Origin: a virus
DNA: 64,000 nt
IMG/VR virus record: IMGVR_UViG_3300035158_000293
Coordinates: 1 to 64,000 of that record
Reading direction: 5' to 3' (one strand)
Part shown: in pieces, positions 1,255 through 64,000 of the stretch
Layout of the letters: the number at the start of each line of letters is the position of its first letter
Position numbering within the stretch: position 1 is the stretch's first letter
Position numbers and translations under genes: made by a program
The notes under the pieces: generated by a model
Databases searched by the model: none
What the model was told of the DNA's origin: nothing
The model's input: only the letters and a program-made list of their open reading frames with translations

Positions 1255-4200
1255 TTAGCTCCTCTTGGAAGCGTTCAAAGCTTTTTGAATCGCCTCATGA
1301 ACCTCTGGAAACTTTTTCTTGAAAGCCTTCGGTGCCGCCGCGTACAAAGCCAACTGCCGCTTGTCTATATTTGCTTCCTGCAACCCAGTATAGCACGCCA
1401 GCGCGAGGTCGGCAACACACTCCGCGAGAGTAATTATGGCTATCGGCAATTCAACACCCGCACGCGCCTCTTTGTAGCTGTATGTATTGGCGTTGTAAAG
1501 GCGTATGTCGCCCTCAACAATTTCCCCCGGAACCACCGTGTTGGGAACGTCCAAGAACTCCACCACTACGTCTGACAAACCCAACCGCTCGGAGAAGGCA
1601 GGGATTTGCTCCTTGATCTTGCAGACAAAGGGGGTGTCCTCTGTTTTTGACGTTGTGTCAAAATCCACCCGCACCGCGTCATCGGTTTTTCCCGTCAACT
1701 CCATGTATTCTGCCGCAACCGGCAACAAAACCTCACCTAGCGCAACCTCGTGCGCCTGTAACGCTTCTACCAAGCTTTTGTGACTCCCCGGAACTCCAAC
1801 CACAATCCTGTAATTCACACCGTCGCGGCGCAATACTGCGGATGTGTGTGCTTTACCGCCCTCGAACACCAACGTGTTCACTCGTGTAAACACCGGTGAA
1901 CCCTTCAAATCCATGTCAGTAGTCTGCCCCGCAACCAACGGTACAGAAGCTTCGGGTTTGTCTGTGATGTGCTCCAAAAGTGCTTGGACACGCTGGCACG
2001 CCAACGGCTCCAACGTGGTTAAGGCAGTCATGTGTTCTTCGATACTCTCCGTCAAGTACTCCTGTGCGTGCTCGGGCAAGACTACGGACGCAAGCGCCTC
2101 CAAATCCTCCTCGGACACATCCACAAGCCCAAAGAGATCAGAGTACACACGCTGTCGAATTTGTTCTTCGGTTTCCCCTTCTGTCAGGTTTTTGGCAATG
2201 TCTGCATCCAGACGCGGTGTTGCCTGTCCTGTGTTGGAAAACTTCCGACGCATTTTGAGCACTTGGTCTGCCGCGTAGTCGCTAAACCGAGCAGGGCCAT
2301 TGAAGCTGTTCCACTCCTCCTGCAAAAGCTCACGTTCATGTGCAAGTAACGCCTTTACACCAAGCGCTTTGGCCGCATCCTCACAAAAAGCATCGAAACC
2401 CTCGGAAAGCCAACGCATGAACACCGGGGATTTCATCTTGGTAGCCTCGGTCAGCGCGGCACGGTGCCTAACATTGTTCTGCAAAAACGCCGTTAGGCAC
2501 CTCTCCCGTACCTGCCGCGTCGCTTCTCGTTCCTGTTTCCTCACGGTAAATCGCGACCTTGCCTGTACACCACGTACAAAACGTGTCCACGCTGTGTGTA
2601 GTGGGGCTTCGTCTTCTGTAAGCACCTCGCACCGATTGGGGTGTACAGTCTTCACGTCAGCTACAAATTGCTGGAACCCTTGTTTGCTATCTTCGGGCGC
2701 GTTCGTATCGAGATGCTGCGCCCACCTGTTGCGGAAGGTGAAAGGGTGCTTTTCTGCGTAATCCAGCAAGCCTTCCACTACGGCATTCAATGGTATTGAG
2801 CACCCCTTCGTCGTGTGCAACCAATCAAGGTAACGCCCATATGCCCGCTCAAACTCGACGACGCTCTCTGCAAACGCGGTGCGCAAAGCACTTCGCAGGT
2901 TGCTTGGCAGGTCTTCATGTCGCTTGAATCCTTTCAAATAAGGCTTCAACTCGGGGACGTAGACCTCTATATGGGCATCGCGGCTCAAAGCGCGAGGGTG
3001 GAACAATACACTTTCACCAAAACAAGCATCATCGGAATAGAACACCAGTTTCAAACTACCAACCGACCCTCGAGCACTTTCCAATCTGCACATATTGAGT
3101 GGGTTTTTGAGCATGATGCCCCGGCGACGATACTTGCGATCTTTGTATAACTCAAAATCATCCACCGTGAGTTCTGACAAACGCCTCGACATGCTCTCAT
3201 GGACGGCTTCCGCTTCCCCACAATTGTCCCGCGCGATTATGTGACGTGTTATCTCGGTTGAAGGTAAGGCGTTTGATGTTGAAAGTGCTTCGTCGAGTAT
3301 TCGCTCTTCTTCGACTACGGACTTGTCCAGAGGGGATGTAACAAACAAGTCAACCAAAGAGCCCTCAGTCTCTTGAAGTCTCTTATGCGCCTGCGCCTTT
3401 GCTTTGGCCAACCATGCTTGTCCTTTTTTGTTCTTAATCGGCGCGTCCATAATTCGACGAGCGATGCGACTAACGGCGGGTGACAGAACGCTCTTCCATT
3501 GATGGGGCGTCAAGTCCTTTTCGTTGTCGATCACAAAGAAGTTTTTCTTCCCGAAAAGCTGTTTGTATTTATCTAAATTGCGATGGGCTCCGCGCCATGC
3601 GTCGTCAATATACGACGGAGGAACATCGCGGCCCCCGGCTTCCGCACGTTTTTTGTTGCGTTCGAGGGCCTTTTCCAGACTCGTAGTAACAAACACCATA
3701 TAGACGTCGTAACCGTTGGCCCGCAACCGCTGAACAGGCTTGAAAATTCGGTCGAAAGCCCACCCTGTGCTGTCAACAATAACCCCTCGACGCTGCTGGG
3801 CGTAGTACCGCAATTCCTTTTTCTTTAGATCACGGGCACGAGTAAACAAGTTGTAATGCCAACCAGCTTCCCCAAAAGGAATACCAGATTCTCGAAGGAA
3901 CTTTTCGAGGTGGCGATCTTGACTGATGACTTTGAACCCCGTACCAGCGAACATTTCCTCGCCTACAGCACTTTTACCAGAACCGCCAGCACCGGCCAAG
4001 AAAATAGCTTTGAGTTGTTGGGGGTCTCTGTAACCCTCTGTCAACCCTAAAGCCTCGGTGAGTGGACGCCCTAAAACCTTATCGAGGCTTTCATCCACAT
4101 CACTCGGGTCCACCAAAACCAAGCCGTCCATAAGGTCATCAGGCGTGTAAGGGTAGTCGCAGGTGTACAATGCTTCCACAATTGTACGTTTGCGGTGCCC

Positions 4201-4560
4201 AACGTCTTCACAGTAAGCAACCGCGGCTTTCACGACATCCAAACCATACACAGCCGCGAACTTCGTGAGGGCAGCATCATACTCGTCTTCATCAAGCGGG
4301 GGCGGTGGATCGTTGTCTTCTATCCAATTAGCCCGCAGATACAAAGCCTCACACAAACGCTTTGTCTCAACGGAAACTTCCACACGTTCCCGGTCTGCTG
4401 TAGTCAGGTTGCGTAAACGAAAAGACTCCCCGGTGGGAGTATGTACCGCGAACCACTTGCCGGATTCCGAATAAACGGGTAAAAACGCTCCGACAGGATC
4501 GGCGGTCGTGCTATCTTCAAGCACGACGTGACGATAACTGTAAGGATCGTAGACTTTCAC
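1255..4560 (-). CDS. 1101-aa modular protein with internal zeta-toxin/AAA_33-like P-loop kinase domain
   Basis: KAIFLAGAGGSGKS (Walker A), VISQD, GVIVDSTG and GYDVYMVFVTTSLEKALERNKKR..GGRDVP at ~3400-4035. Confidence 0.8.
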   Translation of the reverse strand: MKVYDPYSYRHVVLEDSTTADPVGAFLPVYSESGKWFAVHTPTGESFRLRNLTTADRERVEVSVETKRLCEALYLRANWIEDNDPPPPLDEDEYDAALTKFAAVYGLDVVKAAVAYCEDVGHRKRTIVEALYTCDYPYTPDDLMDGLVLVDPSDVDESLDKVLGRPLTEALGLTEGYRDPQQLKAIFLAGAGGSGKSAVGEEMFAGTGFKVISQDRHLEKFLRESGIPFGEAGWHYNLFTRARDLKKKELRYYAQQRRGVIVDSTGWAFDRIFKPVQRLRANGYDVYMVFVTTSLEKALERNKKRAEAGGRDVPPSYIDDAWRGAHRNLDKYKQLFGKKNFFVIDNEKDLTPHQWKSVLSPAVSRIARRIMDAPIKNKKGQAWLAKAKAQAHKRLQETEGSLVDLFVTSPLDKSVVEEERILDEALSTSNALPSTEITRHIIARDNCGEAEAVHESMSRRLSELTVDDFELYKDRKYRRRGIMLKNPLNMCRLESARGSVGSLKLVFYSDDACFGESVLFHPRALSRDAHIEVYVPELKPYLKGFKRHEDLPSNLRSALRTAFAESVVEFERAYGRYLDWLHTTKGCSIPLNAVVEGLLDYAEKHPFTFRNRWAQHLDTNAPEDSKQGFQQFVADVKTVHPNRCEVLTEDEAPLHTAWTRFVRGVQARSRFTVRKQEREATRQVRERCLTAFLQNNVRHRAALTEATKMKSPVFMRWLSEGFDAFCEDAAKALGVKALLAHERELLQEEWNSFNGPARFSDYAADQVLKMRRKFSNTGQATPRLDADIAKNLTEGETEEQIRQRVYSDLFGLVDVSEEDLEALASVVLPEHAQEYLTESIEEHMTALTTLEPLACQRVQALLEHITDKPEASVPLVAGQTTDMDLKGSPVFTRVNTLVFEGGKAHTSAVLRRDGVNYRIVVGVPGSHKSLVEALQAHEVALGEVLLPVAAEYMELTGKTDDAVRVDFDTTSKTEDTPFVCKIKEQIPAFSERLGLSDVVVEFLDVPNTVVPGEIVEGDIRLYNANTYSYKEARAGVELPIAIITLAECVADLALACYTGLQEANIDKRQLALYAAAPKAFKKKFPEVHEAIQKALNASKRS

Positions 4561-4967: not shown

Positions 4968-5002
4968 AGTTGCCCCCTATTCCTACTACAAAGTGAACGG
5001 TA

Positions 5003-5038
5003 GAAAGAACGGGGGCACACTCTATGAGCGGCCCCCGT
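5003..5038 (-). terminator. Putative intrinsic terminator
   Basis: Minus strand reads ACGGGGGC-14 nt-GCCCCCGT then TCTTTCT, just downstream of the 5073..6023 gene. Confidence 0.55.
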
Positions 5039-5072
5039 GTAATTGCGAGCGCGTTGATACTACCGTGCCGCT

Positions 5073-6143: not shown

Positions 6144-9100
6144 TCAAAACTGCTCGGCGATGTCTTGCGGAACCGAGAGAATGAGCTTACCGCCGGAGTA
6201 CCGCACAGGTGTATCATCCGGCAACCTCAAAAACTCGGCCCTCTGCATCACCTCTTGCGCCTTTGATCGGTCAAATTCAATCTCGACCAAACCGTCGGCG
6301 TCATCGTCGTCCTCGGACTCTGAAAGACCCACACCAATGAGCGCGGCGTCTTCCTCGGTCAGAGTTACTACCATATCACCAGATTCCGTGAACGTGACGT
6401 CTGCCTCTGAAGATACGCCGCGTTCATCGGCGTAGTTCGTAAACTTGGCAATGTCGGCTTTCGGAATCGTTATCCTGATTTCGTCTACTTCTTCTTCCAC
6501 GGACTCAGCAAACATGTCTTCAGCGTCGTCAGCCATTTCTTCTGCCGCAGCCTCGATTTCACGTTTGGGAGCCCCTTTGAATTCTTGTGTTAAAAGGTCA
6601 ACGTAAGCGCGTTCAAGCCTTCTACCACCACCGAACCGCTTATAGAGACGAACAGCTTCCAGATAGATAGGTTCGATATTCACTACCTGAAGCTGAATCT
6701 CGTCCGCGTCCATATCTTTTGGGTTGCCGAAGACTTCGTTGATGATCTCATCACCGTTTGTATGCTGGCTCCGCGCTTCGTCGGTTTGACGTTGTCTGAT
6801 CGCTTTCTGCACCTCTTTCGGGAGCCGCTTCACGCTGACCTTTTTCCCAAGGTGCTTACCAAGGTGAACGTGCTTGCCCACATCGCCTACAAACTGGTTG
6901 AAGCCTTGAGGACTGAATGGCCGATTACTCATACCATACGCCTCGGTCCCGATGATAACAGTATAACGGTCAAACGCATCCTCACCAGCGTCGTACACAA
7001 CGACCTTCTGCGCTTCATCCACGGACTCGCCGGTCATGTATTGACGCAAGCGCTTCCGAATACGTTGCTGTATCTTTTGCGGCAACCTATTCATGGGGAC
7101 TTTCTTCCACTTTGGATTTATTTGCAAATCCCAACTAGCGGGTCCGATTTCGCCTGCGTACATATCGACGCCGTACCCGATGTCGAAGACCGTTTTGCCA
7201 ATAACAACAATGTACTGGTCCTCATACCGACCGGAATCGTACACGGTTATCTTTGGCTTCTTAGCTTCATCCACCGTTTCCGCCATCCCCTCGTACTTCT
7301 TCATGATCCGCTTGGACGCCTGTGTAGCCCATTTCTTGTTCTTGTCGATCCTGCCCTTGATCAACTCTGAGGAAACCCACGCGAAATCTTTTGGGCGCAT
7401 CTTCACCTTGTAGGCAAACGTGAGCAACTTGTTCAAGCCTTTGAACACTTCCTGATCTTGACCCTTGAGGTCATAATTGTCACGCAACTCATAGAACATC
7501 GCCCGTGTGTTCGGTGTGGTTCCGAAGTCACCGTCGGGTTTGTAGTGCTTCATTATGGGATTGCTGGTCACACTATCCATGTGTGCCGTGAACTGTTTCT
7601 TTTCGGCCTCGTACACCGCTTCCTCCTTTGACCGCATCATGTTGATGACGATCTGAATGGCGTCCTCGGTATCTTTCGCGCCCTTGTTGATCGCGTTGGT
7701 AATCATGGAGTCGATGATGTCCTCGTCAGGCTCGTCGAAGATGTCCTCGGCGGCATCCATAGCGGCCTGTTTGACCGCTTCTCGGTCGATGTCCGCTTCG
7801 TAGAGCGATTCATTCATCTCTTGCACGAACTCTTTCACCGCTTCCTTGTAGAGGTCAACTATAAGCTGTGGAGCTTTCTTGACGTTCTTGACGTGAATTT
7901 CCTCGTCCGCCCATTCCTCCTCTTCCTCGTCCATGACGGTAACTCGGAGCTTCTTGTCGTCGTAGATAGCCCGAAGCTCGATGGTGAATTCCTCGTTGTT
8001 CGCTTTGGGTTCCTTACGGGTGAAGACCCAAGTGTAAGAGTCGTAGTCGGAGTCGGTTTTGTACTGAAAACCTGCACGCCGAGTTTCATCGACGAAGGTG
8101 TTTTCAATCATGTACTTGAACTGCTTGTGAGGCCGACGCGCTTCCTGATCCGCGTAATACTCGTACCAAGAGCCCCATGTCGTGAGGTAAATCTTGCCTG
8201 TTTCCCCATCGTACAGAAGCGTGGGCTTGTACGTGTCGCCCATGTTGATGTAGTAGGCCGGGTACTCCGCGGTGAAGTCATCTCCGCGGTCTTCGTCTGG
8301 TTGAAGGTACTCCACACCAAAGCCGTCTACGAGATCGTTGATTTGTTTCAGAGCATCCTCTCCACGACCACTTTTAAGGATGTTCTTGACCTCCTTCGCA
8401 GTATCCGTGTCCACTTTGAAAGCTTTGGCAAGGTCGCGGATAGCCGGGCGAGCATCACCGATGGAAAGCTTGCGAGCTTCGTCGAGAGCTTCACCGATCA
8501 TCATAGCACCACACTCGGGACATTCGGTTTCATTGCAGGGTGTGCCTCTTTCGTGACGCATCTCATGCCCACAAGCAGGGCAGACGCACATTTCAGCGCC
8601 ACCATCACCCTGATAAGGACCACCTTGACCCATTCCATCCCCTCGACCCTCGTCAACCTCTACCAGTTGACGCAGGCCCCATATTTTGCCTTCGTCGTCG
8701 AAGCGATTTTCGTTGATCTCTTCAAGCATTTCTCGGGTCTTGCCATACACCGGCTCCACACCCTCGGCTATCAGGATGTAGTTATAACCCTTGACAACCA
8801 TACGGTTGGCGACGCGAACTTCGGACTCCGTGAGCCTCATTGGTTGTGCCTCCGTTTCCTTTGTTTCCGACCGGCCCATAGTACCCAAACTGAGGTATAG
8901 CCCGGTTTCTTTTTCAATCCAAGGTTTTAGCTGGTCAGCATAAAGACCTTCTGCCTCGGCCTTGGTGGTACGACTACCTTTTCGGGTCGCACGAACCAAC
9001 TCGACATCATACAGGTCTTTGCCTCTGTCGTAATGTATGACAAGGTAATTCGCGCTGGTCTTATTGCGCCCAATGCGAATGTTGACTGTCTTGTTCTTTT

Positions 9101-9527
9101 CGGAATAGCTTACTTGCTTGCTACCCATCATGTAAAGCGCCTTGTTACCACCTATTTGCTGAAGGACTGTTTTCGCCCAAGGCGGTACCGCTTCTTCCAA
9201 ATTCTCTCTTACTGTTTTCTTGAGGTGTTTGACATGGCGATTGATCTGTGACTGCTTACACTCGAAACGACCACCAACACGATACCCATTCGTGCCTATG
9301 TAGTTATCAAGAGGAGCACGGTACAGATCACCGTCTGGCCCTTGGAAATACTCGAACTTGCCAAGGAACATCTTGTGACCTTTACTCTTCTCTTCGCCCT
9401 CCCCTATGTCCGGGCAACCCGAATCCCACGATCCGGGTCCGACATCTGCGGGTCGGCGTATAATCTCTACTTTGGCCTTTGTAAATCCCGGAACAGGGTT
9501 GCACTTCTTCTTCCGTTTTTTCGGCAT
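6144..9527 (-). CDS. ~1127-aa modular protein (putative internal head polyprotein)
   Basis: Start moved to MPKKRK (AGGAG SD). Small modules (QQIGG...TGLYLSL; CVCPACG...CPECG; YINMGDTY; two YD(S/A)G...LP domains) are separated by (L/V)xE|A motifs. Confidence 0.75.
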   Translation of the reverse strand: MPKKRKKKCNPVPGFTKAKVEIIRRPADVGPGSWDSGCPDIGEGEEKSKGHKMFLGKFEYFQGPDGDLYRAPLDNYIGTNGYRVGGRFECKQSQINRHVKHLKKTVRENLEEAVPPWAKTVLQQIGGNKALYMMGSKQVSYSEKNKTVNIRIGRNKTSANYLVIHYDRGKDLYDVELVRATRKGSRTTKAEAEGLYADQLKPWIEKETGLYLSLGTMGRSETKETEAQPMRLTESEVRVANRMVVKGYNYILIAEGVEPVYGKTREMLEEINENRFDDEGKIWGLRQLVEVDEGRGDGMGQGGPYQGDGGAEMCVCPACGHEMRHERGTPCNETECPECGAMMIGEALDEARKLSIGDARPAIRDLAKAFKVDTDTAKEVKNILKSGRGEDALKQINDLVDGFGVEYLQPDEDRGDDFTAEYPAYYINMGDTYKPTLLYDGETGKIYLTTWGSWYEYYADQEARRPHKQFKYMIENTFVDETRRAGFQYKTDSDYDSYTWVFTRKEPKANNEEFTIELRAIYDDKKLRVTVMDEEEEEWADEEIHVKNVKKAPQLIVDLYKEAVKEFVQEMNESLYEADIDREAVKQAAMDAAEDIFDEPDEDIIDSMITNAINKGAKDTEDAIQIVINMMRSKEEAVYEAEKKQFTAHMDSVTSNPIMKHYKPDGDFGTTPNTRAMFYELRDNYDLKGQDQEVFKGLNKLLTFAYKVKMRPKDFAWVSSELIKGRIDKNKKWATQASKRIMKKYEGMAETVDEAKKPKITVYDSGRYEDQYIVVIGKTVFDIGYGVDMYAGEIGPASWDLQINPKWKKVPMNRLPQKIQQRIRKRLRQYMTGESVDEAQKVVVYDAGEDAFDRYTVIIGTEAYGMSNRPFSPQGFNQFVGDVGKHVHLGKHLGKKVSVKRLPKEVQKAIRQRQTDEARSQHTNGDEIINEVFGNPKDMDADEIQLQVVNIEPIYLEAVRLYKRFGGGRRLERAYVDLLTQEFKGAPKREIEAAAEEMADDAEDMFAESVEEEVDEIRITIPKADIAKFTNYADERGVSSEADVTFTESGDMVVTLTEEDAALIGVGLSESEDDDDADGLVEIEFDRSKAQEVMQRAEFLRLPDDTPVRYSGGKLILSVPQDIAEQF

Positions 9528-9565
9528 CGTTGTTGTGCTCCTAATGACTACGGAACTCGTTGTTT

Positions 9566-24354: not shown

Positions 24355-24624
24355 TTAAAAAAGCACCCTCAAAAGGTATTGCCACAACGCCAACCCCAAA
24401 CACGAGCCCAAAAGACCGCCAGTCACCGCACCAAAACGCACATACTGTTTTTCTGTCCGGGCCTTCAGGGACAGGGTAGCGTCAACCCACCAATCCCCAA
24501 CCCAAATCGCCATCAAAACCCCCACACAAGGTAAGAGTGTGCAGAGGACTAAAGAGACTAAGCATGCACCGTGCAAATATCGAGAAAAGCGTCCGTCGGG
24601 GCCATACATAGCACACCTCAACAT
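24355..24624 (-). CDS. Small two-TM membrane protein
   Basis: Two hydrophobic segments; TAATG overlap with the giant gene stop. Confidence 0.5.
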   Translation of the reverse strand: MLRCAMYGPDGRFSRYLHGACLVSLVLCTLLPCVGVLMAIWVGDWWVDATLSLKARTEKQYVRFGAVTGGLLGSCLGLALWQYLLRVLF

Positions 24625-51703: not shown

Positions 51704-51713
51704 TTGCGTGATG

Positions 51714-58000: not shown

Positions 58001-61000
58001 ATTGTGCTCGTTTTTACCCTCTGAGAACGCACATGCGCGTCCATGCGCGTTTTTCTTTCGTGGGTTGGTGCCTCGTGTCATGTCGATGTCGAAAATGCTT
58101 TCTCGCGCATCCTCGTTCGTTTTTCGTTTTTGGGTGGTTTGCGCCTCGATCTCCGTACCGAAAACGTGCTGTGTAAAGGCGGATTCACCTAAAACCTCGG
58201 CCTTTACACGCTCCACATTACGGAAGTTTGTCTTCTTGAGAACGTCTACCCCGCCATGTCCGAGGGCTTTTTCACACCCCGCGGCAATTGCTCGGGCATT
58301 GCCGTACACGGGAAGAACGTAGTCGTCGCGATCTTTACCGAAGATAACCGCCGCCCCGACAATCTTGTTTGCACCTCGGAATGTAATGGGCTCTGTCACT
58401 CTGACATTCGGGTACTGGCTCTGCAAGGCGGTTGTCGTTGGACGATTCAAAACAGGACCGAGCTTGTCCACAAGGGCCTCAAGCTCCTTCCTGATTTTCG
58501 GGTTGTGTTGGTCGGTACGTCCCGGCCCTTCGTAGTTACGAACCCACGCTTTGAGGAAGTCCTTTATCTCTTTCTCCGCGGTCCTCCTGATCTTGACAGG
58601 GTCCACGTTTTGTGACGCGGCCATGCGCTCTATGTACTTCGCCACAAAACCCTCAAACGTATCCCGCCTTTGTGCCAACGCTTTGTCACGTTCACCTTCG
58701 ATATACTCACGCTCCCAATCTGCAAGGTCCGGGTCTTGGTAGTTGTACCGGGCCTCGAACTCTTCGTCGGGTTCGGGGTCAAATTCCTTAACCGTGTACT
58801 TCGTAATCGCCATGCCTGCCGGTGCAGCCATTACTGCAACCGATCCGGGGTCGGGAAGCTGGTCTTCGTCGGTTTTTGCTGTGCGCGTTTCTATTTGCAC
58901 GGCGAAAAGCATAGGGTCTCCGCCGAATTTGTTTGTGGCGTCCCTCGCGGAACTCAATGCTGTGAGGAAGTTTTGTGTGAAGTAGTTACCATCAAGACTT
59001 GCGAGGGCTTGATTCTTCTGATCCCAAACTTTCTGCTTCTGATTGAGTTTGAAGCCTTGTTTTAGAATCGACCTCCCAAACTTGGTAGTGGTACCGTGGA
59101 AGTACAACGCCTTGGCTTCGGTTAGATTTGACGTTGTGTCAAAACCCTCCCAAAAGTCGTCATCGAACTCGATTTCGATCTCCATACCCGGAAGCTCAAT
59201 TTCAATCTCGTTGTCATCCTCGTCTTCGTCGCCGTCTTCTCCGTCGGGATTTGTACCCTCTGGACTCGTGTATTTCCCGGTCAACAGATAGCCGTCGGAC
59301 GATGGCATTGTCGATGAATCTCCCTTTACAATGGCGTCCTTTCCGGGATGCGTAGTTGTGATACTGTGCTCCGGGTGTTCGCCTGCGCAAGTCTCCTCCT
59401 CTTCGGCTGCTTCATCGGACTCCGTTACCGGTATCTTCGTTCGGGCCAACGCATCTGCAAACGTGGCAAACCTTGCCACCTCAACCTCGCCTTGCATCAC
59501 CACAAAAGGCTCGTCCCCGTACTCCTTTACGTCGATGCTGTACTCTGTCTGTTCCTTTTCTTTCTTAGTCTGGAACAGCCCTTTGTCGCGTTCTGAATCC
59601 TTGTCCGCAAAACGCTCGCGTTTTTGGTATGATCCTGTCCTTATGCTCCGCAATTTTGTACGAAGGTTCTGTAGCTTCTCCGCGAAGTCATCCAAAACAG
59701 AGTAAGTGTAATAGACAGTTTGTCCGGTTTTCCTGCCCGTCTCAACATTACGGCGTATGCTAGCCAAAGCCTCGCGAGCATACGCGCTGGTTTCAAAGGC
59801 CGTCACCACGTCATCTTCTTGGTCGTCGGAAACGAAGAACACCTTTACGGGACCATCCACGCCTGCGGGCATGATCGCTTTGTCATACTCGACACCAGCA
59901 ATCACGACCCCTGCGTCGAACACTTCGTAGTTGTCGAGGTCTTCGCCATATATGAACTCGTGTTTGCCGTAAACAGGGTAATACGGCAACGCTTCTTCTG
60001 TATCGTCGGCTTCTGTCACACTCTCGTTCATGCGGGCCTTGATCCAGCTCTTGAAGCGGCTGTTCTTATCCTTTGCGGACACGATCTCTATTGTGTAGTC
60101 GGACTCGAGCTTTTTGATCTCTTTGAGGAGGTCCGCCTTTTCATCCCAAGTATCTCCATCTAAAGCGTGTTTCATTCTCAAAATGTCGGGCCACTCTTCC
60201 GACGGTTTGTCTCGCCACTCCATGTAATTGGTTACGTCCTCAAGCTGACTGATCCCTATGAGCAATTCGGACCCTTTGGGAATCTTCAAATCCCGATCTT
60301 TTATAATCCACTCGCCCTCGTTCTTGTAAACCTGTCCAATGAGCTTCAATCCCTCTGTTATTTTGCGCTCAAGCTCTTTCATAGGGACTTCGTCCAAAGC
60401 ATCGGCGAAGCGCTTGTAAGTGTAGTCCTCCTCACGAAGCTTTGGAATGCCGACCTTCTTCAACCACTTTGCAATATCTCGCGGTCCTCGGATTTTCTTG
60501 GGCGGGTTTTTTCGGGCTACGTCCGCCAACTTGCTGTGGCCAGCTATGTGTCGATTTTCCATCACAAGTGTTTTGTATTTCGAATCACTCTTGAACGCCT
60601 CTATCATGTATTCGAACACGTTGCGGTAAACCTGTGTTAAACCTATCGGGGTCTTGCTCGCGTCAAACAAACGGTAGAGCGCGTCACAATTCTTGGCGGT
60701 GAGATACATGGGGTTATCGTACATAACGCGGCTAACGGCGTTCTCTTCAACAAACGCACGCCCCGGCATCTTCAACGCGGCTGACTTGTTGAACAAGTAT
60801 TGGATGTCCTCGGAGCTACTGACACCCGCAGCGCCTTCGAGCCGTCTCTTTTTCAATGACTCAAGGTGAGACGGCTTGTACACGTCGAACGACAGGTAGA
60901 AAAATTCCGGTATGTCCGCGTCGGTGTAAGACGCCTCGACCAATGGCCGACCTGCAAACGTGGCCGTGTGCTCGTTTGTATCACCGTTAGGTAAACCCTT

Positions 61001-62902
61001 CATGTTCGTCTCTCCCAATTTATTGGTGCCACTCTCCAAAAGACCACGCTCTTTCAGTTTGTTGTAAGCCTCGTCCCCCAGCTTGTTTGCGATACTGTAC
61101 GGCATGTTCTTGAACACGTCGTTAATTATGTAGCCGGGTTCGGCTGCACCCCGCGAACGTCGGAAGAATGGGAGAAGCTGATCCAGTATGCCGTCTACTG
61201 TGTGCCACTTATTACTGCTGGGTTTTTCTTTTTTGATCCGCTTGGCAAGCTCGGCAAGTGTGGCCTTGCGTACTTCCTGCGGCTCAAAGAACTGGTAGTC
61301 GAGAAGGCCCGTACCGGAACCCTCGCCGTACTCCTCTATGAACTCCTCACGAGTCATAGGTACAAACTGTCCGTAACGCTCACCTCTGACGTAAACCTTC
61401 GTGATCTGACGAGGTGACACCCGCCCAATGAACAACGCTTGAGGCTCCTGACCCTTGTCCAGTAGTCCGAACGAAACACTCGGTCGGAAAGACTTGGGGT
61501 ACGACTTCCTCCAAAGATCGTCCTCGCGTTCCTGTTCTGCCGGGTTTTGACTGAACAGGTCTTTACCCTGCACCGTGAACCGCAGGATAACGGGTCCGAA
61601 CTTTTCGGCTGTTTTGTAGTCCGGCGCGACAAACAACCCACGGTCAAGCCGCTTGCCTCCTGAATAGTGCGGGTAAAGACGGTGTGTTGGCTTGGTGGCG
61701 TCGACGCCTTTGCGGACAAACTCCAAGGCGGTTTTTTGGTCTGTGCCGTGGAACAGTTGGAGTTTGGTGTTGGGCCGTAGCCGTGCGATGCTTCCGCGCT
61801 TGCCTTCATGGAGAGCTTCGGATTCCTCCATCCGCTCCCGCGTTCCAACGCCCTCATTCACCAGCCGTAGTTCGCCATGAGGCACGTCAAACGGGTTGTC
61901 GTAACCTTTGTCAACCGTTCGGAACCAAACACGCCTGTCAGAGCCTTCGGCAAACCGTTTGATAGCCGCATCTGTCTTTGCCACGGCCACTACCTTGTCA
62001 CCTTCCCTGACGTTGTACAGGTATTTGCCACGGTGTGTCTGCGTAATAATGTAATCACCGGGTGCGGGTGACGACCACCCTTGTGTACTCTCAATTTTGA
62101 GGTTCCTCTGCGCAAGTTCCTTCATGTGTGCCTGCGTCAACTTTTTTCTGCGGGATCGGCGTTTGCGCGGTTTCATGCCGGGTCGCGCATGGCTCATAGG
62201 CACTACCTGCACGTCGGTGATACCGCTTTTCTTCAACCAATTCTTAACACGGGACACCATGTTCTGATCAAGCACCAGCACCTTGTCCAACCATTCAGGA
62301 CGAAACTTGAAATCCCCTCCCCGCAACCATTCGTCTTCTTCCGCGTACTGTTCCATGAAAGCGTCGAGCATCATACCGCGCTTGACGTCCCAAAAATCAC
62401 CGACGAGGTAGTCCTCATATTCTTCCTCTTCGAACGGCTCCCCATCTTCATCAAACACACCTCCCTGAGCAGCGGCGGACGCCAACTCGTCGGGGGTTTC
62501 AATAACCCCGCCCTCCGCGTCAAAAAACTCCTCATACGGGAAGGTATCCATAGCCATGCCGTATGCTTGCTCCGCAGCAACATCGGTCATTTCGGGAGAC
62601 TGTGCGAGGACGTATTCAACAGCCGTTGGGTTTTCGTCAAACCAGTCCTCGGTGTAGTGGACCTCTGTAAAGTGTGATTCGAGTGGTTTGCGATGGAACG
62701 CTAAAATCACATCGTGATGTGTCCCGAACATCCCACCTTCAAGCGGATAAGTCGAAAGGCTGACGAAAGCGGGTCCGCCCATGTATGATGCGTTGGCTTT
62801 CAACGTCCGGGATTTGAGGATGTCCCTGAGAGCTTTGTAGTGTGTGGTGTGAAAGAAGTGCTTGGTCTGCGCTTCGAACAGAGAAATTCCGCTGTTACCC
62901 AT
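52088..62902 (-). CDS. 3604-aa polyvalent protein: three ART-fold domains, YodL-like and OCRE-like modules, other modules
   Basis: Uninterrupted 10.8-kb ORF with AAGGA SD; FFHTT..FVSLS, LFHGT..GLFVA, YFHGT..GNYFT; HTSMSIGDVI..VDRGGF; YYDPREGCYYDPDTDIYY. Confidence 0.9.
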   Translation of the reverse strand: MGNSGISLFEAQTKHFFHTTHYKALRDILKSRTLKANASYMGGPAFVSLSTYPLEGGMFGTHHDVILAFHRKPLESHFTEVHYTEDWFDENPTAVEYVLAQSPEMTDVAAEQAYGMAMDTFPYEEFFDAEGGVIETPDELASAAAQGGVFDEDGEPFEEEEYEDYLVGDFWDVKRGMMLDAFMEQYAEEDEWLRGGDFKFRPEWLDKVLVLDQNMVSRVKNWLKKSGITDVQVVPMSHARPGMKPRKRRSRRKKLTQAHMKELAQRNLKIESTQGWSSPAPGDYIITQTHRGKYLYNVREGDKVVAVAKTDAAIKRFAEGSDRRVWFRTVDKGYDNPFDVPHGELRLVNEGVGTRERMEESEALHEGKRGSIARLRPNTKLQLFHGTDQKTALEFVRKGVDATKPTHRLYPHYSGGKRLDRGLFVAPDYKTAEKFGPVILRFTVQGKDLFSQNPAEQEREDDLWRKSYPKSFRPSVSFGLLDKGQEPQALFIGRVSPRQITKVYVRGERYGQFVPMTREEFIEEYGEGSGTGLLDYQFFEPQEVRKATLAELAKRIKKEKPSSNKWHTVDGILDQLLPFFRRSRGAAEPGYIINDVFKNMPYSIANKLGDEAYNKLKERGLLESGTNKLGETNMKGLPNGDTNEHTATFAGRPLVEASYTDADIPEFFYLSFDVYKPSHLESLKKRRLEGAAGVSSSEDIQYLFNKSAALKMPGRAFVEENAVSRVMYDNPMYLTAKNCDALYRLFDASKTPIGLTQVYRNVFEYMIEAFKSDSKYKTLVMENRHIAGHSKLADVARKNPPKKIRGPRDIAKWLKKVGIPKLREEDYTYKRFADALDEVPMKELERKITEGLKLIGQVYKNEGEWIIKDRDLKIPKGSELLIGISQLEDVTNYMEWRDKPSEEWPDILRMKHALDGDTWDEKADLLKEIKKLESDYTIEIVSAKDKNSRFKSWIKARMNESVTEADDTEEALPYYPVYGKHEFIYGEDLDNYEVFDAGVVIAGVEYDKAIMPAGVDGPVKVFFVSDDQEDDVVTAFETSAYAREALASIRRNVETGRKTGQTVYYTYSVLDDFAEKLQNLRTKLRSIRTGSYQKRERFADKDSERDKGLFQTKKEKEQTEYSIDVKEYGDEPFVVMQGEVEVARFATFADALARTKIPVTESDEAAEEEETCAGEHPEHSITTTHPGKDAIVKGDSSTMPSSDGYLLTGKYTSPEGTNPDGEDGDEDEDDNEIEIELPGMEIEIEFDDDFWEGFDTTSNLTEAKALYFHGTTTKFGRSILKQGFKLNQKQKVWDQKNQALASLDGNYFTQNFLTALSSARDATNKFGGDPMLFAVQIETRTAKTDEDQLPDPGSVAVMAAPAGMAITKYTVKEFDPEPDEEFEARYNYQDPDLADWEREYIEGERDKALAQRRDTFEGFVAKYIERMAASQNVDPVKIRRTAEKEIKDFLKAWVRNYEGPGRTDQHNPKIRKELEALVDKLGPVLNRPTTTALQSQYPNVRVTEPITFRGANKIVGAAVIFGKDRDDYVLPVYGNARAIAAGCEKALGHGGVDVLKKTNFRNVERVKAEVLGESAFTQHVFGTEIEAQTTQKRKTNEDARESIFDIDMTRGTNPRKKNAHGRACAFSEGKNEHNQTHRREFDTMSINEPNESTVVSESKQKRFGDEIAKLYRKDTTEKLSPKLQREATNYAARNNEGVALTKQLARAAWMHMPQIEDEEYFTDLFRQAFDRAVGELKLEEQRQKAQITWDYVPLDIERCASCNTVLAEDEPVVVDEEARTMCLDCVDRRKQQPYFEEIAETYQGTIEAGMITSRFGTWGVKKTEAGTLVVLKGKAYDVPNTFEEVHSLVKEIHGMYEDLPEECDAMIEAFLEEYTRDAGTETPESQKVQKQANPEPAEPEEEGARERLLGFGLLTNDNEDHITADPTLAKESEESGMGNLHEAKGETGKLARKVLRLEEGAGTQEEQREQYRKLVAEAKKNVGKAPKLLQPYIRDAIKRVEKELANPNSDPSDWADAELKRLDVRGREVKRIDRWMKEQNAMHYDPKVKGTPHPDWEPVSGSRRLSCNVSGDYGSVSISSTTKEMYVSWTPWTMTVAKKAGVKVEGEEGGQTLPEEVSETENGVQGFDVDTMSMEEEGRRKGKGTEGLKESVMGRGRYGIAAGAYEVVGKTVSGMPVLRKREVCESVAGTHFPKFTRVEGSLAFFRGGIVERGRILAHRADYRHALLNPLQDAASTPMTTIEAGAGSAPFAPDPADLHPLFGAQIPFVPPEETEEGKTADTSVTLPATDRGFAALDQGQNAGLAQETTEAGDNMLKSATNAVDVHNAFPNISPELAAVIAAQVQKGKVTTEQALRDIGERVKHPVERLDDLVYVDRGDAGQPTFMLLNGRVYLDSLARYNLIHGGDRTDGVGLLGEGWKRLGTIDRTRYKKRQGLEGPFQTPTGKVVYYDPREGCYYDPDTDIYYPRNKNPFQESIVEFLEPQEQYVGSDLVNGWSVMFTTESGSTDGPFRVYVNEGNDVNAYRLWSTFPTFAQAMTSAAAHVGQMPRGNSTLHKYDIPEVALKTSRGTFGESKWRAPIITRDVHYGDGKRVTLRRDESGVTIRRGEQVVGSVIRASAAVGDGQTASVYSVQIDSPDVDAVAVTQAVERVLPEFMEEVVRKQAAVSDLSVYPWQGGDAYKYPIGKGRNEPAVKQTDMTKLEKGEALVTLPRSRIAAKTEAVAPDANTIEVSLTVEDSAPDRYVYRTARVDGTRILRIKNDKAVVRITLENSREFTYKFPDQVTASAFAFNVAQGRDWTLDKLNALARNVNQQVTVGEAEDCDYTVQEILRIIDRIERGVSIDTTSKPDDSEVPTNTHTITEGNRCDIVEARKPIEIEWSKQPGRGVVDEFALYVDYDLPKTAPGKAAKPRYAGTKDTRGANVPRALFKNLTQNNRDMNPVYKFKAPEQLDTFVARVKTKARWTEDDLDALAKREGGLRITKLNRYLDSMIRGLKAESSDTMSNDLAEGRDIAAAKKLVKPGYVGTEWETAAGRDAKEPTVIRRVEAYDEDKGMVAISQSDRPAKFMELLPVDQLVGEIAFNRAQAEAAKAKAQTSKEKEEEQQKKQADYEDTDGFAEQFPPLRAGRVRKHLHTRINVPVGIGTNKRVPLKGRDLIRGLVRAGWRVKRGRGGRRIVKGASFFVEKDLSKTLLDYAEYLYPKRKQIKPVKGLPKHFTEDIHPAVFGIGGVVMVPLAEGSPVNEVTEYRNLNVAARYVPGLAEGDTEIWYMKTGVSRDLGMGFDWAKDHDALPDPKNLRKTHILLGKVKERDPEKLFRAMQARLWSPHGEARKLLKQKGIDHTSMSIGDVIVTGNKVLLVDRGGFVDLKKVQESDAVARLHPEQVHHGVLAEERRGILQEGSKRSFPAGTPKQKTAAESILKKLERKLQMEADTLASFYEPEEEPHPLYNPDKATLDKVVKLTLDVLYSVHAGEIVRVAKLRGFDDPNAFFRYFGRWLAGRRDPWDFPVKGMEFVNALKSLSECAFGPYGIESPGPDDLLVLQSFPRKNLYEAKIGDIIIARFESDAALREFVEGATTRVWFQAAEGSNPFNAPEGLTTLIKEADAE

Positions 62903-63007
62903 TGTTTTGTCCTTCCGTAAAGTGCGGCGGCTTCACCGGAAGGGCCGTTCAAAAAGGACCGTTTCACGGAAGTTACGACCGCGTTCGTGGAATTCGTTTA
63001 CCGGTTG

Positions 63008-64000
63008 TTATGCGAGCATGCCGTAGCCGTCACCAACCTCCAAATCACCTTCAGCCGAAACCATCATGGTTCCGCATTTGGGGCACTCCATGCCCCGCGC
63101 GGTTGACTGTTTCGGTCCTGTGGAGTAACCACAGCCCGGACACCGCATGAGCCCCACAGACATCGCAAAACCACCGCTGGAGAAACCACCCGTGCTCGCA
63201 GTTGTAGTGACTTCCTTGAGCCTTTTTGCGGTCTTGCCTGTGAAGCCGCTCTCTTGATACTTCTTGTACGCCAACTTGTCGAACTTGCCTTTCTTGGCTT
63301 CCCTCTCAAACTGATCCCGCATCATCTCTGCGGCTCTCTGACGTATCTGTGGAGTAACGTCGAGATAAGGAATGCCTACAACCTTGGAGGCACCTTTGTA
63401 CGCCGCATTGGACAGAGTGAGAAACTTCTTCACCGCCTGCTCGCGGTCGTAGTCACCTTTGGCGACGTGGTTGATCATCGACCTGCAAGCTTGCTGCCAT
63501 GCGGGTTCCGCGGCCATTTGAATCGTTTTGACAATGAAGTCCGCCATCTTCTTACCATACGGCGTTTCTTCATCGCCTTCTCCTTCATCGAGGTGTTCCA
63601 CGCTCTCCATGAACATGCGGACCTTGCGCTGTATCTCCGCCAACCGTGCTGTTTTGTCTAATTTGAAATTGTCGTCCTCTTCATCCTCGTCGGGGTCGTA
63701 CTTAGGGCGCGTAGCCTTGATAACAGCCATTAAGTCAACCGCCTCGTTCAACGCTTCGGGAAACAACTCACGACGTCGTGCTTTGACCCGTTCTATCATA
63801 GGCTCCCATGAACCATATCCGGGATCAAGACGCTCACCATACTGACGCAACGTGTCGGGTGTCATGTACCTTTCTTGTCCGCGCTCTTCAAAGCGTAGTA
63901 ACACGCGGCAATCACTCCCGTCGCTCTCGTTTGGGCCGTTTACAAACAACAGACCGACACTCTCCAAATGCACCGACGATTCCCCGATGATTTGCATAGG
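63008..64000 (-). CDS. Modular protein with C-terminal Zn ribbon, 5' end probably outside the window
   Basis: Open to the window edge; LNE|A, LDE|G and LKE|V motifs; CPGCG...CPKCG. Confidence 0.7.
   Translation of the reverse strand, partial: PMQIIGESSVHLESVGLLFVNGPNESDGSDCRVLLRFEERGQERYMTPDTLRQYGERLDPGYGSWEPMIERVKARRRELFPEALNEAVDLMAVIKATRPKYDPDEDEEDDNFKLDKTARLAEIQRKVRMFMESVEHLDEGEGDEETPYGKKMADFIVKTIQMAAEPAWQQACRSMINHVAKGDYDREQAVKKFLTLSNAAYKGASKVVGIPYLDVTPQIRQRAAEMMRDQFEREAKKGKFDKLAYKKYQESGFTGKTAKRLKEVTTTASTGGFSSGGFAMSVGLMRCPGCGYSTGPKQSTARGMECPKCGTMMVSAEGDLEVGDGYGMLA

What the first reader, a model, noticed from the sequence alone, without database searches (positions are those of the whole stretch)
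1255..64000. A set of putative polyproteins punctuated by prohead-protease-like (L/I/V)-x-E cleavage motifs
Seen: module boundaries repeatedly read ES(L/I/V)DE|x or (L/V/I)xE|(A/G/S). In the 758-aa protein: GESLDE|E, GESLDE|R, ESIDE|G, ESIDE|A, ELDE|A, SIFE|A. In the 1127-aa protein: NLEE|A, EVDE|G, ALDE|A, SLYE|A, AVYE|A, TVDE|A, SVDE|A. In the 3604-aa protein: SLFE|A, ALHE|G, PLVE|A, SVTE|A, NLTE|A, NLHE|A, DIVE|A, NLYE|A. They also occur in the 1101-, 516-, 3524- and 329-aa ORFs. Known: T4 gp21 cleaves after (L/I)-x-E, and T4 internal proteins carry a ~10-aa leader ending in E. The 3604-aa protein starts with the 10-aa MGNSGISLFE. Inference: about 30 kb of the window encodes capsid-packaged polyproteins that are cut into dozens of small effectors and injected with the DNA.
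Basis: partly seen in the sequence, partly recalled or inferred. Interest (0 to 1): 0.8.

Follow-up and report, generated by a model that had tools for sequence, protein, structure and literature searches.

The report
Phage polyproteins with head-protease junction motifs
An uncultured T4-type giant phage strings many small proteins into very long chains whose joints carry the short signal that T4-type head proteases cut, so the chains are probably loaded into the capsid and cut into separate proteins, although no cut has been observed.

Summary
The bare (L/I/V)-x-E motif is not special: it is 1.3x over shuffles both in the candidate proteins and in all other ORFs. The extended joint, E-S-(L/I/V)-x-E followed by A or G, is special. 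There are 14 copies against 1.0 expected in the 7 candidates and 3 against 1.7 elsewhere. It recurs in a relative, G003, at 4 against 0.2. It also tops an unbiased k-mer scan.

In the 1127-aa protein (6144-9527), homology-defined module borders fall on the motif sites, and stand-alone homologues begin at the residue after the predicted cut. Across IMG/VR records, one module is fused behind such a joint in 16 of 18 records that carry a T4-type (S77) protease, and stands alone in 9 of 10 records without a detected S77 gene.

The window's contig has no protease. A sister contig, G035, overlaps both of its ends and carries an S77 protease fused to a scaffold, a gp23-type capsid gene and tail genes.

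Verdict: these are probably prohead-protease-cut cargo polyproteins, a new variant of polyvalent proteins. Evidence is weak for the 3524-aa ORF and absent for the tail-fibre ORF. Packaging, cleavage and injection are inferred. The scan noted this theme before on other genomes.

The parts
52088..62902 (-). 3604-aa multi-module ORF (P0001). It has strong joints at P1 = 10, 366, 656, 964, 1262, 1942, 2478, 2869 and 3549, and three paralogous H-x-T (ART-like) modules that start 5-17 residues after joints 10, 366 and 1262.
   Evidence: [LIV]xE[AGS] is 29/12.5, z = 4.7. The match of residues 1262-1350 to a G003 ORF starts at the joint. Pfam finds nothing over threshold, PHROGs gives only phrog_13298 (unknown function, residues 2425-2465), and PDB has no sequence relative.
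62873..62902 (-). 10-residue N-terminal leader MGNSGISLFE, ending in L-x-E before Ala. It is a candidate capsid-targeting and cleavage leader.
   Evidence: It has the same form as the 10-residue T4 IPIII leader (PMC9026906, passages seen). Function is not tested.
63008..64000 (-). C-terminal 330 residues of a 1609-aa ORF (genome 63008-67837). Joints ALNE|A (1365) and HLDE|G (1418) lie in the window.
   Evidence: Residues 58-185 are homologous to a 568-aa ORF of G003 that sits in the same place upstream of a motif-bearing 1373-aa ORF.
9566..11842 (-). 758-aa ORF with six joints: ESLDE at 11603-11617 and 11189-11203, ESIDE at 10565-10579 and 10358-10372, SELDE at 10082-10096, RSIFE at 9803-9817. 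The predicted pieces are about 70-210 aa.
   Evidence: ES[LIV]xE is 4/0.1, z = 16. There is no internal repeat by BLASTP, so the joints are not copies of one duplicated module.
6144..9527 (-). Joints are ENLEE 9192-9206, VEVDE 8649-8663, EALDE 8478-8492, ESLYE 7797-7811, EAVYE 7608-7622, ETVDE 7266-7280, ESVDE 7014-7028 and RQTDE 6777-6791.
   Evidence: Module borders come from 167 alignments to 149 database proteins. Alignment starts cluster at 110-118, 289-294 and 839-842, next to sites 112, 293 and 838. Alignment ends cluster at 345-351 and 913-918. PHROG families of about 100 aa match single modules.
1255..4560 (-). 1101-aa ORF. A Zeta-toxin/AAA_33-type P-loop kinase module (residues 177-347) is preceded by PLTE|ALGLTE|G (169/175; 4036-4068). 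A further joint is ILDE|A (424; 3289-3303).
   Evidence: Zeta_toxin 6.2e-15. The homologous module of the G003 1373-aa ORF follows IESVDE|G (34% identity, E = 1e-29).
19071..20621 (-). 516-aa ORF. An ART-like H-x-T module sits at the very N-terminus, followed by SVIE|A (143), a long acidic stretch, and a Tad6-like (Thoeris inhibitor family) C-terminal module at 421-506.
   Evidence: (Tad6 4.5e-27). The motif excess is weak ([LIV]xE[AG] 5/1.7, z = 2.6).
24624..35198 (-). 3524-aa ORF (P0002), a weaker candidate. It has an N-terminal HExxH module (HEFTH at residues 147-151, window 34746-34760), few strong joints (GFDE|A 374, PLDE|A 1077 and 1093), and about 100-aa repeats between residues ~1320 and 2470.
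   Evidence: (ES[LIV]xE 2/0.2; [LIV]xE[AG] 13/9.0).

Best explanation
The 758-, 1127-, 1101-, 1609- and 3604-aa ORFs are chains of small, mostly unrelated protein modules. The 516- and 3524-aa ORFs may be too, with less certainty. The joints between modules read (E)-(S/A/T/N)-(L/I/V)-x-E followed by Ala or Gly. The phage is a roughly 220-kb T4-type myovirus. Its head protease (Peptidase_S77, the gp21 family) lies on the part of the genome missing from this contig.

The proposed mechanism has these steps:
1. The chains are made late.
2. They enter the prohead core.
3. The S77 protease cuts them after the Glu of each exposed joint. The same protease is expected to trim the capsid protein and to cut up its own scaffold-like C-terminal half.
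4. The released modules stay in the head and enter the host with the DNA. They include a Zeta-type kinase, a Tad6-like anti-Thoeris module, ART-like modules and zinc ribbons.

Shown here:
- The motif excess.
- The motif's position at module borders.
- Its recurrence in independent phage lineages.
- Its link with S77 genes.
- The T4-type head genes.

Inferred, not shown: packaging, cleavage, and delivery into the host.
For: 1. Excess of the extended motif. ES[LIV]xE is 14/1.0 in the 7 candidates and 3/1.7 in the other 103 ORFs. It replicates in relative G003 (portal 46% identical): 4/0.2 in ORFs of 1000 aa or more and 2/0.9 in the rest. It tops an unbiased k-mer scan.

2. The motif sits at module borders. 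In ORF 6144-9527, the alignment starts and ends of 167 domains from 149 database proteins cluster at sites 112, 293, 350, 838 and about 917. Stand-alone homologues of one module start Met-Ala-x-x-Pro-x-Trp, which matches the chain right after NLEE|A. The p3604 match to G003 begins at residue 1262, which is joint NLTE|A. Paralogous H-x-T modules begin 5-17 residues after joints.

3. Other lineages show the same pattern. Unnamed metagenomic giants (1808-2490 aa) read ESLTE|A, SIEE|A, IVSE|G and ESVDE|A at the same borders. Of the 80 IMG/VR loci kept out of 221 relatives, 52 of 56 internal copies of that module have [LIVMF]xE within -8..+5 of the border. Only 3 of 18 copies that start their ORF do.

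4. Link with the protease. S77 is present in 16 of 18 records where the module is internal, and the two misses are 42% and 12% complete. It is present in 1 of 10 records where the module stands alone, and 6 of those 10 are at least 90% complete (Fisher p = 7e-5). In all 16 records the chain lies within about 2.4 kb of the S77 gene and on the same strand; I worked this out by hand from the coordinates. In L058 the chain is followed by small ORFs that start with 9-11-residue leaders ending in L-x-E.

5. This phage's own head genes. The portal is gp20-like (2489 phage records). Contig G035 overlaps both ends of this contig in the same orientation: 141 bp at 100% identity and 499 bp at 87%. It carries S77 (E = 1.5e-22) fused to a coiled coil, gp23-type MCP (2.3e-48), sheath, tape measure and baseplate genes. 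That protease-scaffold ORF has the largest [LIV]xE excess of all G035 ORFs of 150 aa or more (28/13.3, z = 4.8). The MCP N-terminus has RIDE|A and INE|V just before the conserved mature part.

6. Selection acts on the peptide, not the DNA. Codons at 31 joints vary synonymously: five Ser codons, four Leu codons and four Ala codons.

7. Known rule. T4 gp21 cuts after L/I-x-E, first seen at a Glu-Ala bond, and a 10-residue leader targets internal proteins to the head (PMC9026906, section 2.5 and passages).
Against: - No protease gene lies on the window's own contig. The link runs through a sister contig whose second overlap is only 87% identical, so it may be a related strain rather than the same genome.
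- The bare LxE motif is generic (1.3x in both sets), and [LIV]xE[AG] is also 2.4x in the 35-52 kb control genes.
- Many matches lie inside folded modules. Residues 224 and 231 fall within the Zeta domain, and the SLYE|A site (577) lies inside a conserved module (alignments 565/566-633/646). A motif match alone therefore does not define a cut.
- The scaffold-like sites mostly have Ser, Lys, Thr or Glu after the Glu, not Ala or Gly.
- p3524 shows little excess, and the 3298-aa giant on G035 shows none (12/11.5).
- For the zinc-ribbon module, most outside homologues are preceded by E-K, not by the motif.
- The record-level association is not corrected for shared ancestry. The S77 records may be one clade.
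- Phage N4's giant virion RNAP is packaged uncut (PMC5512222, passages), so large size does not imply cleavage.
Confidence: 0.6

Rival explanations
1. The chains are uncut polyvalent proteins. The joint motif would be a linker or docking signature, for example a short acidic helix cap or a tag that binds the scaffold core. The whole chain would be packaged, or would act in the cell, as one polypeptide.
For: Phage N4's 3500-aa virion RNAP is packaged unprocessed (PMC5512222, passages). The giants have few strong sites per length. The P1' preference for Ala or Gly differs from the scaffold-like sites.
Against: A plain linker does not need a fixed hydrophobic-x-Glu register. Stand-alone homologues begin exactly after the Glu. 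The fused state goes with S77 genes. Short N-terminal leaders of the same form occur on neighbouring small ORFs in L058.
Confidence: 0.2
2. The chains are cut at the joints by another protease. This could be the HExxH module at the N-terminus of the 3524-aa ORF, a zincin-like peptidase as proposed for polyvalent proteins, or it could be a host enzyme. The cutting would then happen before packaging or after injection.
For: HEFTH is at residues 147-151, with a downstream Glu-bearing helix (SPIEVHA, 194). G003 has a stand-alone 264-aa ORF with a similar pair of motifs. ESM Atlas leads point to LPD23, LPD1 and SprT-like clusters, with scores of 0.84-0.87, which makes them leads only. Iyer et al. 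propose release by embedded peptidases (PMC5512222).
Against: No Pfam or PDB match supports it. The AF2 model is unusable (pLDDT 38). BLASTP to the G003 ORF is not significant (E = 0.055). Nothing ties a zincin to a Glu|Ala rule, whereas the S77 family has exactly that rule. The motif goes with S77 genes in other phages.
Confidence: 0.1
3. The motif is a by-product of composition, of helix periodicity, or of DNA-level boundary sequences used for module shuffling.
For: Bare [LIV]xE is 1.3x over shuffles in every protein set. The proteins are Glu-rich (8-13%).
Against: The extended motif is 14x over shuffles only in the candidates, replicates in G003 and tops an unbiased scan. A 3298-aa giant of the same lineage has none. 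Codons at the joints vary synonymously.
Confidence: 0.04

Closest known systems
T4 internal proteins (IPI-III) and Alt with the gp21 prohead protease
   Same: Head type: gp20-like portal, gp23-like MCP and an S77 protease in the lineage. Cut rule: hydrophobic-x-Glu, often before Ala. Short N-terminal leader (10 residues in p3604). Cargo that counters host defence.
   Different: T4 cargo proteins are single small proteins, each with one leader. Here up to about 3600 residues and many modules hang on one chain with internal joints. The joint also has extra conserved positions (Glu-Ser before the hydrophobic residue, Ala or Gly after the Glu). Cleavage and packaging are not shown.
Polyvalent proteins of phages and conjugative elements (Iyer, Burroughs, Anand, de Souza, Aravind 2017, PMC5512222)
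   Same: Very large multi-module phage proteins encoded among virion genes, with conflict-type modules (kinase, ART-like, possible zincin). They are predicted to travel with the DNA, and the authors draw the analogy to RNA-virus polyproteins.
   Different: That paper proposes release by embedded peptidases (zincin-like, or a C-terminal assemblin-like one). The word 'linker' does not occur in its main text, and the passages I read describe no joint motif. Here the joints carry the site of a separately encoded T4-type protease. None of the paper's hub domains is confirmed here.
Ejection and inner-body proteins of phiKZ, 201phi2-1 and SPN3US, cut by gp175/gp245
   Same: Head-internal proteins cut at several sites after Glu by a diverged gp21 homologue and delivered to the host (PMC5694885 and PMC9026906, passages).
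   Different: Their motif is (S/A/G)-x-E or A-x-E. [AGS]xE is not enriched here (223 against 263.0 expected). Those cuts mostly remove propeptides and do not separate unrelated modules.
Phage P1 Dar proteins (DarA, DarB, DdrB)
   Same: Large head-packaged anti-restriction proteins, some of them processed (PMC5512222, passages).
   Different: No sequence relation was found and the head type differs. P1 processing is not known to use repeated joints.

Membership tests
T4-type head maturation system (S77 protease and its substrates) | A Peptidase_S77 (gp21-like) protease encoded by the phage | tested here: inconclusive
   It is absent from the window's own contig, which is 75% complete. It is present on G035, which overlaps both contig ends (E = 1.5e-22), and in the syntenic relative G003 (E = 2.9e-21).
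T4-type head maturation system (S77 protease and its substrates) | gp20-like portal and gp23-like major capsid protein | tested here: met
   The portal at 98798-100609 matches 2489 phage records, mostly T4-like. Gp23 matches on G035 at 2.3e-48 and on G003 at 2.3e-40. The own contig has only a weak 328-aa Gp23-like ORF (E = 0.005).
T4-type head maturation system (S77 protease and its substrates) | Substrates cut after Glu in L/I-x-E | not testable with these tools
   Motif presence, position and excess are shown. Actual cleavage needs proteomics or an enzyme assay.
T4-type head maturation system (S77 protease and its substrates) | An N-terminal capsid-targeting leader of about 10 residues on cargo proteins | tested here: inconclusive
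   p3604 starts with a 10-residue leader ending in LFE|A. Of 123 ORFs, 12 have [LIVMF]xE[AGS] at residues 6-25, and I computed no chance expectation for that. Targeting function is untested.
Polyvalent proteins (Iyer et al. 2017) | Many unrelated globular domains in one phage polypeptide | tested here: met
   Separate modules match separate small protein families and stand-alone proteins.
Polyvalent proteins (Iyer et al. 2017) | Encoded among virion or late genes | tested here: met
   On the joint G000+G035 map, and in G003, the chains lie between the portal and the protease/MCP genes. All are on one strand, with tail fibres interspersed.
Polyvalent proteins (Iyer et al. 2017) | Hub domains of the class (zincin-like MPTase, ART, DarB-type methylase-helicase, and others) | tested here: inconclusive
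   There is only an HExxH motif plus ESM leads below 0.9. A profile of the H-x-T modules hits Tpt1 and PARP10 at E = 0.2-1. No Pfam match was found.
phiKZ-type inner-body or ejection proteins | Cleavage motif (S/A/G)-x-E | tested here: not met
   [AGS]xE is 223 against 263.0 expected in the large proteins (z = -2.8).

The most novel reading that the evidence does not exclude
In T4-type phages, fusion behind an S77 joint may be the general way into the capsid. Small anti-defence and takeover proteins that stand alone in phages without a detected S77 gene are strung into chains of up to about 3600 residues here. A single N-terminal leader would carry the whole chain into the prohead, and the maturation protease would then cut it. 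On this reading, the phage would load well over 10,000 residues of distinct cargo modules per copy set. This would be a dsDNA-phage counterpart of RNA-virus polyproteins, and the joint motif could be used to read out the injected proteome of uncultured phages from sequence alone.
Probability: 0.4. Interest if true: 0.8.

Novelty: new variant of a known kind. Interest (0 to 1): 0.62.

Why it matters
If the joints are real cut sites, a simple sequence rule would delimit the injected proteome of T4-type phages, including uncultured ones. It would split giant ORFs of unknown function into dozens of testable small proteins, many of them likely anti-defence factors; a Tad6-like module is already among them. 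It would also explain why such phages carry ORFs of 3000 aa and more, and it would add a trans-acting, capsid-confined processing route to the polyvalent-protein concept. I found no paper describing protease-site joints in phage polyproteins (full-text searches; Iyer et al. 2017 passages). Supplementary files were not seen and may hold more. The scan itself has noted the same theme on at least eight other genomes, so this looks like a recurrent class and not a one-off.

Tried and rejected
- Structure prediction. AF2 without an alignment gave mean pLDDT 43.7 for the 758-aa ORF and 38.0 for p3524 residues 1-330. Both are too poor to define domains or to search folds, so no fold search was run.
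- Word-indexed homologue searches with p3604 found nothing, either at near length over the whole protein or among shorter proteins for residues 1-1300.
- phmmer of both giants against PDB found nothing.
- The 758-aa ORF has no relative in IMG/VR.
- tblastn of the 1127-aa ORF against cultured phages found only 7 records, each matching a single module.
- A weight matrix built from 31 outside joints gave 5 hits in the candidates (0.6 in shuffles) and 2 in the other ORFs. It is too tied to the AT-rich training lineage to be useful.
- An exact 40-base scan of the metagenome collection for the contig end found nothing. The protein route then found G035.
- Peptidase_S78 is absent from the own contig and from 13 S77-less records, so the protease of those phages remains unknown.
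- BLASTP of the p3524 N-terminus against the G003 HExxH ORF is not significant.
- Sheath (PF04984) and Baseplate_J Pfam models missed G000 and G003. PHROGs later found sheath and baseplate genes on G035.
- Considered and dropped: an N4-like virion RNAP (no PHROG or Pfam match) and DNA-level boundary sequences.
- I did not use complex prediction. An enzyme with its substrate peptide is a poor case for that tool.

Full report
WHAT THE WINDOW IS

The window is the first 64 kb of a 123,798-bp viral contig (G000) that is linear and estimated 75% complete. Nearly all genes lie on the minus strand.

The large ORFs in the window are:
- 1255-4560: 1101 aa.
- 6144-9623: a 1159-codon frame. The ATG at codon 33 gives the 1127-aa protein 6144-9527.
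- 9566-11842: 758 aa.
- 12236-14707: 823 aa, TPR repeats.
- 19071-20621: 516 aa.
- 20901-24284: 1127 aa.
- 24624-35198: 3524 aa.
- 52088-62902: 3604 aa.
- 63008 onward: the tail end of a 1609-aa ORF (63008-67837).

Pfam names only a few pieces: Zeta_toxin/AAA_33 in the 1101-aa ORF (residues 177-347), a Tad6-like module in the 516-aa ORF (421-506), and YadA_head plus Peptidase_S74 in 20901-24284. That last ORF is therefore a tail fibre. The two giants have no Pfam hit over threshold, one PHROG hit of unknown function, and no sequence relative in PDB. The 35-52 kb block holds small non-structural genes such as a pyrimidine-dimer glycosylase and DUF5131.

CHECKING THE OBSERVATION

All the quoted strings are present. 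Three corrections are needed:
- The '329-aa ORF' is a fragment of the 1609-aa ORF.
- The claimed span includes many genes that have nothing to do with the motif.

Statistics (400 shuffles per protein set):
- Bare [LIV]xE is 1.3x over shuffles in the seven candidates (268/207.4) and also 1.3x in the other 103 ORFs (481/373.9). It is a general property of proteins, not a signal.
- ES[LIV]xE is 14 against 1.0 expected in candidates, 3 against 1.7 elsewhere and 0 at 35-52 kb.
- ES[LIV]DE is 5 against 0.07 in candidates and 0 elsewhere.

A scan of all gapped 3-5-mers, made without reference to the hypothesis, puts ESI.E, ESV.E, GE.LD, AL.EA, ES.DE, E.LDE, DEAR, LDEA and L.EA among the top patterns of the candidates. 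The remaining ORFs are led by Lys runs and zinc-ribbon CxxC patterns. The tail fibre (1/2.6) and the TPR protein (4/2.4) show nothing.

DO THE MOTIFS MARK MODULE BORDERS?

AF2 without alignments failed (pLDDT 43.7 and 38.0), so I used homology instead.

A full HMMER search of the 1127-aa ORF against 1.84 billion representatives gave 2735 hits at E <= 0.001, nearly all of them to single modules. I re-aligned the best 149 locally, which gave 167 domains. Alignment starts pile up at residues 110-118, 289-294 and 839-842. Alignment ends pile up at 345-351 and 913-918. These positions are beside the motif sites NLEE|A (112), EVDE|G (293), ALDE|A (350), SVDE|A (838) and QTDE|A (917).

Ten stand-alone homologues of the first module begin Met-Ala-(x)-x-Pro-x-Trp or similar. 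The chain reads ...NLEE|A-V-P-P-W. The predicted cleavage product would therefore start where the free protein starts.

One counter-example: the SLYE|A site (577) lies about 12 residues inside a conserved module.

In the 3604-aa ORF, three paralogous modules with an H-x-T motif begin 5-17 residues after joints 10, 366 and 1262. A fourth copy opens the 516-aa ORF. A profile of these modules touches Tpt1 and PARP10 only at E = 0.2-1, so 'ART-like' is a lead. A search of residues 1-2900 against 27 related viral records gave a match that starts at residue 1262. That match lies in a G003 ORF where the same H-x-T motif sits about 20 residues from the start.

The Zeta-type kinase module of the 1101-aa ORF follows PLTE|ALGLTE|G. 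Its G003 homologue (34% identity, E = 1e-29) follows IESVDE|G.

OTHER LINEAGES

Unnamed metagenomic proteins of 1808-2490 aa carry the same modules with ESLTE|A, SIEE|A, IVSE|G, ESVDE|A, ESLDE|A and similar joints.

Over all three well-defined modules, 33 of 125 internal module starts have [LIVMF]xE[AGS] within 8 residues, against a background of 0.11. For the zinc-ribbon module alone, most homologues are preceded by Glu-Lys instead of the motif, which counts against a universal rule.

For the first module, 29 of 34 internal copies have [LIVMF]xE at -13..+6. Three of those 29 matches lie inside the module itself. Background is 0.32.

In IMG/VR, 221 stretches encode this module and the best 80 were kept:
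- 56 copies are internal to longer ORFs, and 52 of these have [LIVMF]xE at -8..+5. The other four read VYRE|S or VYRE|A.
- 18 copies start their ORF, and 3 of these have the motif.
- 6 copies have short leaders, and 2 of these have the motif.

Many of these loci are close relatives, so the counts are not independent events.

LINK WITH THE PROTEASE

29 records were searched for Peptidase_S77, and 17 have it.

Cross-tabulated:
- Internal copies: 16 of 18 records have S77. The two without are 42% and 12% complete.
- Stand-alone copies without the motif: 1 of 10 records has S77, and that match is weak (E = 3.7e-9). Six of these ten records are at least 90% complete.
- One record with a short motif-bearing leader and no S77 (40% complete) was left out of the table.
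- Fisher's exact test gives p = 7e-5. This is not corrected for relatedness.

From the coordinates, which I worked out by hand, the chain lies on the same strand within about 2.4 kb of the S77 gene in all 16 records.

In L058 (a 169-kb record, 95% complete) the gene order is as follows:
1. Head maturation protease (phrog_207).
2. A 110-aa ORF.
3. A 502-aa chain made of several small PHROG families.
4. Small ORFs that begin with 9-11-residue leaders ending in L-x-E.

Peptidase_S78 was found in none of 13 S77-less records.

THE PHAGE'S OWN PROTEASE

The contig has no S77, no S78 and no match to the G003 protease. The evidence for a protease elsewhere in the genome is:
- Head type. The portal is gp20-like.
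- Relative G003. It is a 74-kb contig with a portal 46% identical, and it is collinear with G000 from DNA polymerase through terminase and portal to the 1609-aa homologue. It has an S77 protease fused to a coiled coil (E = 2.9e-21) followed by a gp23-type MCP. Its 1373-aa ORF carries HESLDE|A, GESLDE|A, AIHE|A and IESVDE|G.
- Sister contig G035. The ORF that runs off the start of G000 led to this 95,753-bp contig. Its bases 1-141 equal G000 123658-123798 at 100% identity, and its bases 95255-95753 match G000 1-499 at 87%, in the same orientation. It therefore bridges both ends of G000, giving a joint map of about 219 kb. The 87% overlap means it may be a related strain.
- Genes on G035. It carries S77 (E = 1.5e-22, a 570-aa protease plus coiled coil), gp23-type MCP (2.3e-48), tail sheath, tape measure and baseplate wedge.
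- Scaffold signal. The G035 protease-scaffold ORF has the strongest [LIV]xE excess of all G035 ORFs of 150 aa or more (28/13.3, z = 4.8). This is what one expects of a T4-type core protein that gets cut to pieces.
- Capsid propeptide. The MCP has RIDE|A and INE|V just before its conserved mature N-terminus. G003 has VVNE|A at the same place (residue 81). A 328-aa Gp23-like ORF on G000 has ELQE|A at residue 72.

EVIDENCE AGAINST, AND LIMITS

- A 3298-aa giant ORF on G035, just upstream of the head genes, has no motif excess ([LIV]xE[AGS] 12/11.5, ES[LIV]xE 0). The 3524-aa ORF has little. Size alone does not bring the motif, and not every giant is a jointed chain.
- Motif matches also occur inside folded modules.
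- The scaffold-like sites prefer Ser, Lys, Thr or Glu after the Glu, while the joints prefer Ala or Gly.
- Codons at 31 joints vary synonymously. This argues for selection on the peptide and against DNA-level boundary sequences.

WHAT IS KNOWN

- T4 gp21 cuts after L/I-x-E, first seen at a Glu-Ala bond. It cuts core proteins into many pieces and removes leaders of 7-65 residues. The first 10 residues of IPIII suffice for head targeting (PMC9026906, section 2.5 read in full, other passages).
- The phiKZ, 201phi2-1 and SPN3US proteases cut ejection proteins after (S/A/G)-x-E or A-x-E (PMC5694885, passages). That motif is not enriched here.
- Iyer et al. 2017 defined polyvalent proteins, predicted that they travel with the DNA, and proposed release of domains by embedded zincin-like or C-terminal assemblin-like peptidases. 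The word 'linker' does not occur in the main text, and no joint motif appears in the passages I read (PMC5512222). Supplements were not seen.
- Three full-text searches found no paper on protease-site joints in phage polyproteins.
- Earlier notes of this scan describe the same theme on at least eight other genomes. These are unchecked notes and I did not test them.

VERDICT

The best reading (about 0.6) is that five to seven ORFs of this window are cargo polyproteins of a T4-type jumbo phage, jointed by S77-protease sites. This is a new variant of polyvalent proteins and of T4 internal-protein biology. It rests on sequence evidence only.

Noticed in passing
window 20901-24284 (-); genome 85319-87259 (-): Two tail-fibre ORFs (1127 and 646 aa) have YadA-head-like repeats and a C-terminal Peptidase_S74 intramolecular-chaperone module. 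The first one sits between the 3524-aa and 516-aa ORFs.
   Followed up: partly
window ~27789-31241 (residues ~1320-2470 of the 3524-aa ORF): An array of about 100-residue repeats with a core like V-x-N-G-(W/Y/H)-(P/G)-V-A-V, often ending in E-G-P-Y. It has no known family. It may be a structural (fibre or decoration) part of the protein and not cargo.
   Followed up: partly
window 34746-34760 (HEFTH, residues 147-151 of the 3524-aa ORF): An HExxH motif with a Glu-bearing helix about 45 residues downstream. G003 has a stand-alone 264-aa ORF with a similar pair of motifs. ESM Atlas leads point to LPD23, LPD1 and SprT-like clusters at 0.84-0.87. It may be a zincin-like peptidase, but this is unconfirmed.
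   Followed up: partly
G035 (L103-L108) against G000 ends: A 95.8-kb IMG/VR contig overlaps both ends of the window's contig (141 bp at 100% identity, 499 bp at 87%), implying a genome of about 219 kb. It holds the head and tail genes and a third giant ORF (3298 aa, with a NUDIX module at residues 1557-1643) that has no joint motif.
   Followed up: yes
genome 78223-79209 (-), outside the window (L012:1372-2358): A 328-aa ORF has an N-terminus like the capsid-protein propeptide (26% identity to the G003 MCP over 137 aa; Gp23 E = 0.005). It is much shorter than an MCP and sits among methyltransferase and thymidylate synthase genes. It could be a truncated capsid paralogue or a vertex or decoy protein.
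   Followed up: partly
window 8478-8663 (residues 294-350 of ORF 6144-9527): A small Gly-rich zinc-ribbon module (G-x-G-x-G-G-P-x-Q-G-D-G-G, then two CxxC pairs) accounts for most of the 2735 database hits. It occurs alone (75-100 aa) and in many multi-module proteins. A second copy ends the 1609-aa ORF.
   Followed up: partly
window 19071-20621 (-): The 516-aa ORF joins an ART-like N-terminal module to a Tad6-like C-terminal module (Thoeris inhibitor family) through about 230 residues of extremely acidic, low-complexity sequence.
   Followed up: no
31 joint sites listed: The P1 Glu uses GAA in 22 of 31 joints, while GAA makes up 469 of 1034 Glu codons in the same genes. This is a mild, unexplained codon bias at the joints.
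   Followed up: no
I did not examine it.
   Followed up: no
window 4557-4967 and 11865-12248 (-); genome 97467-98306 (-): Small ORFs next to the chains, and the conserved 279-aa ORF next to the portal, have hydrophobic-x-Glu followed by Ser or Gly within their first 9-22 residues. They may be leader-bearing head proteins. I computed no chance expectation.
   Followed up: no
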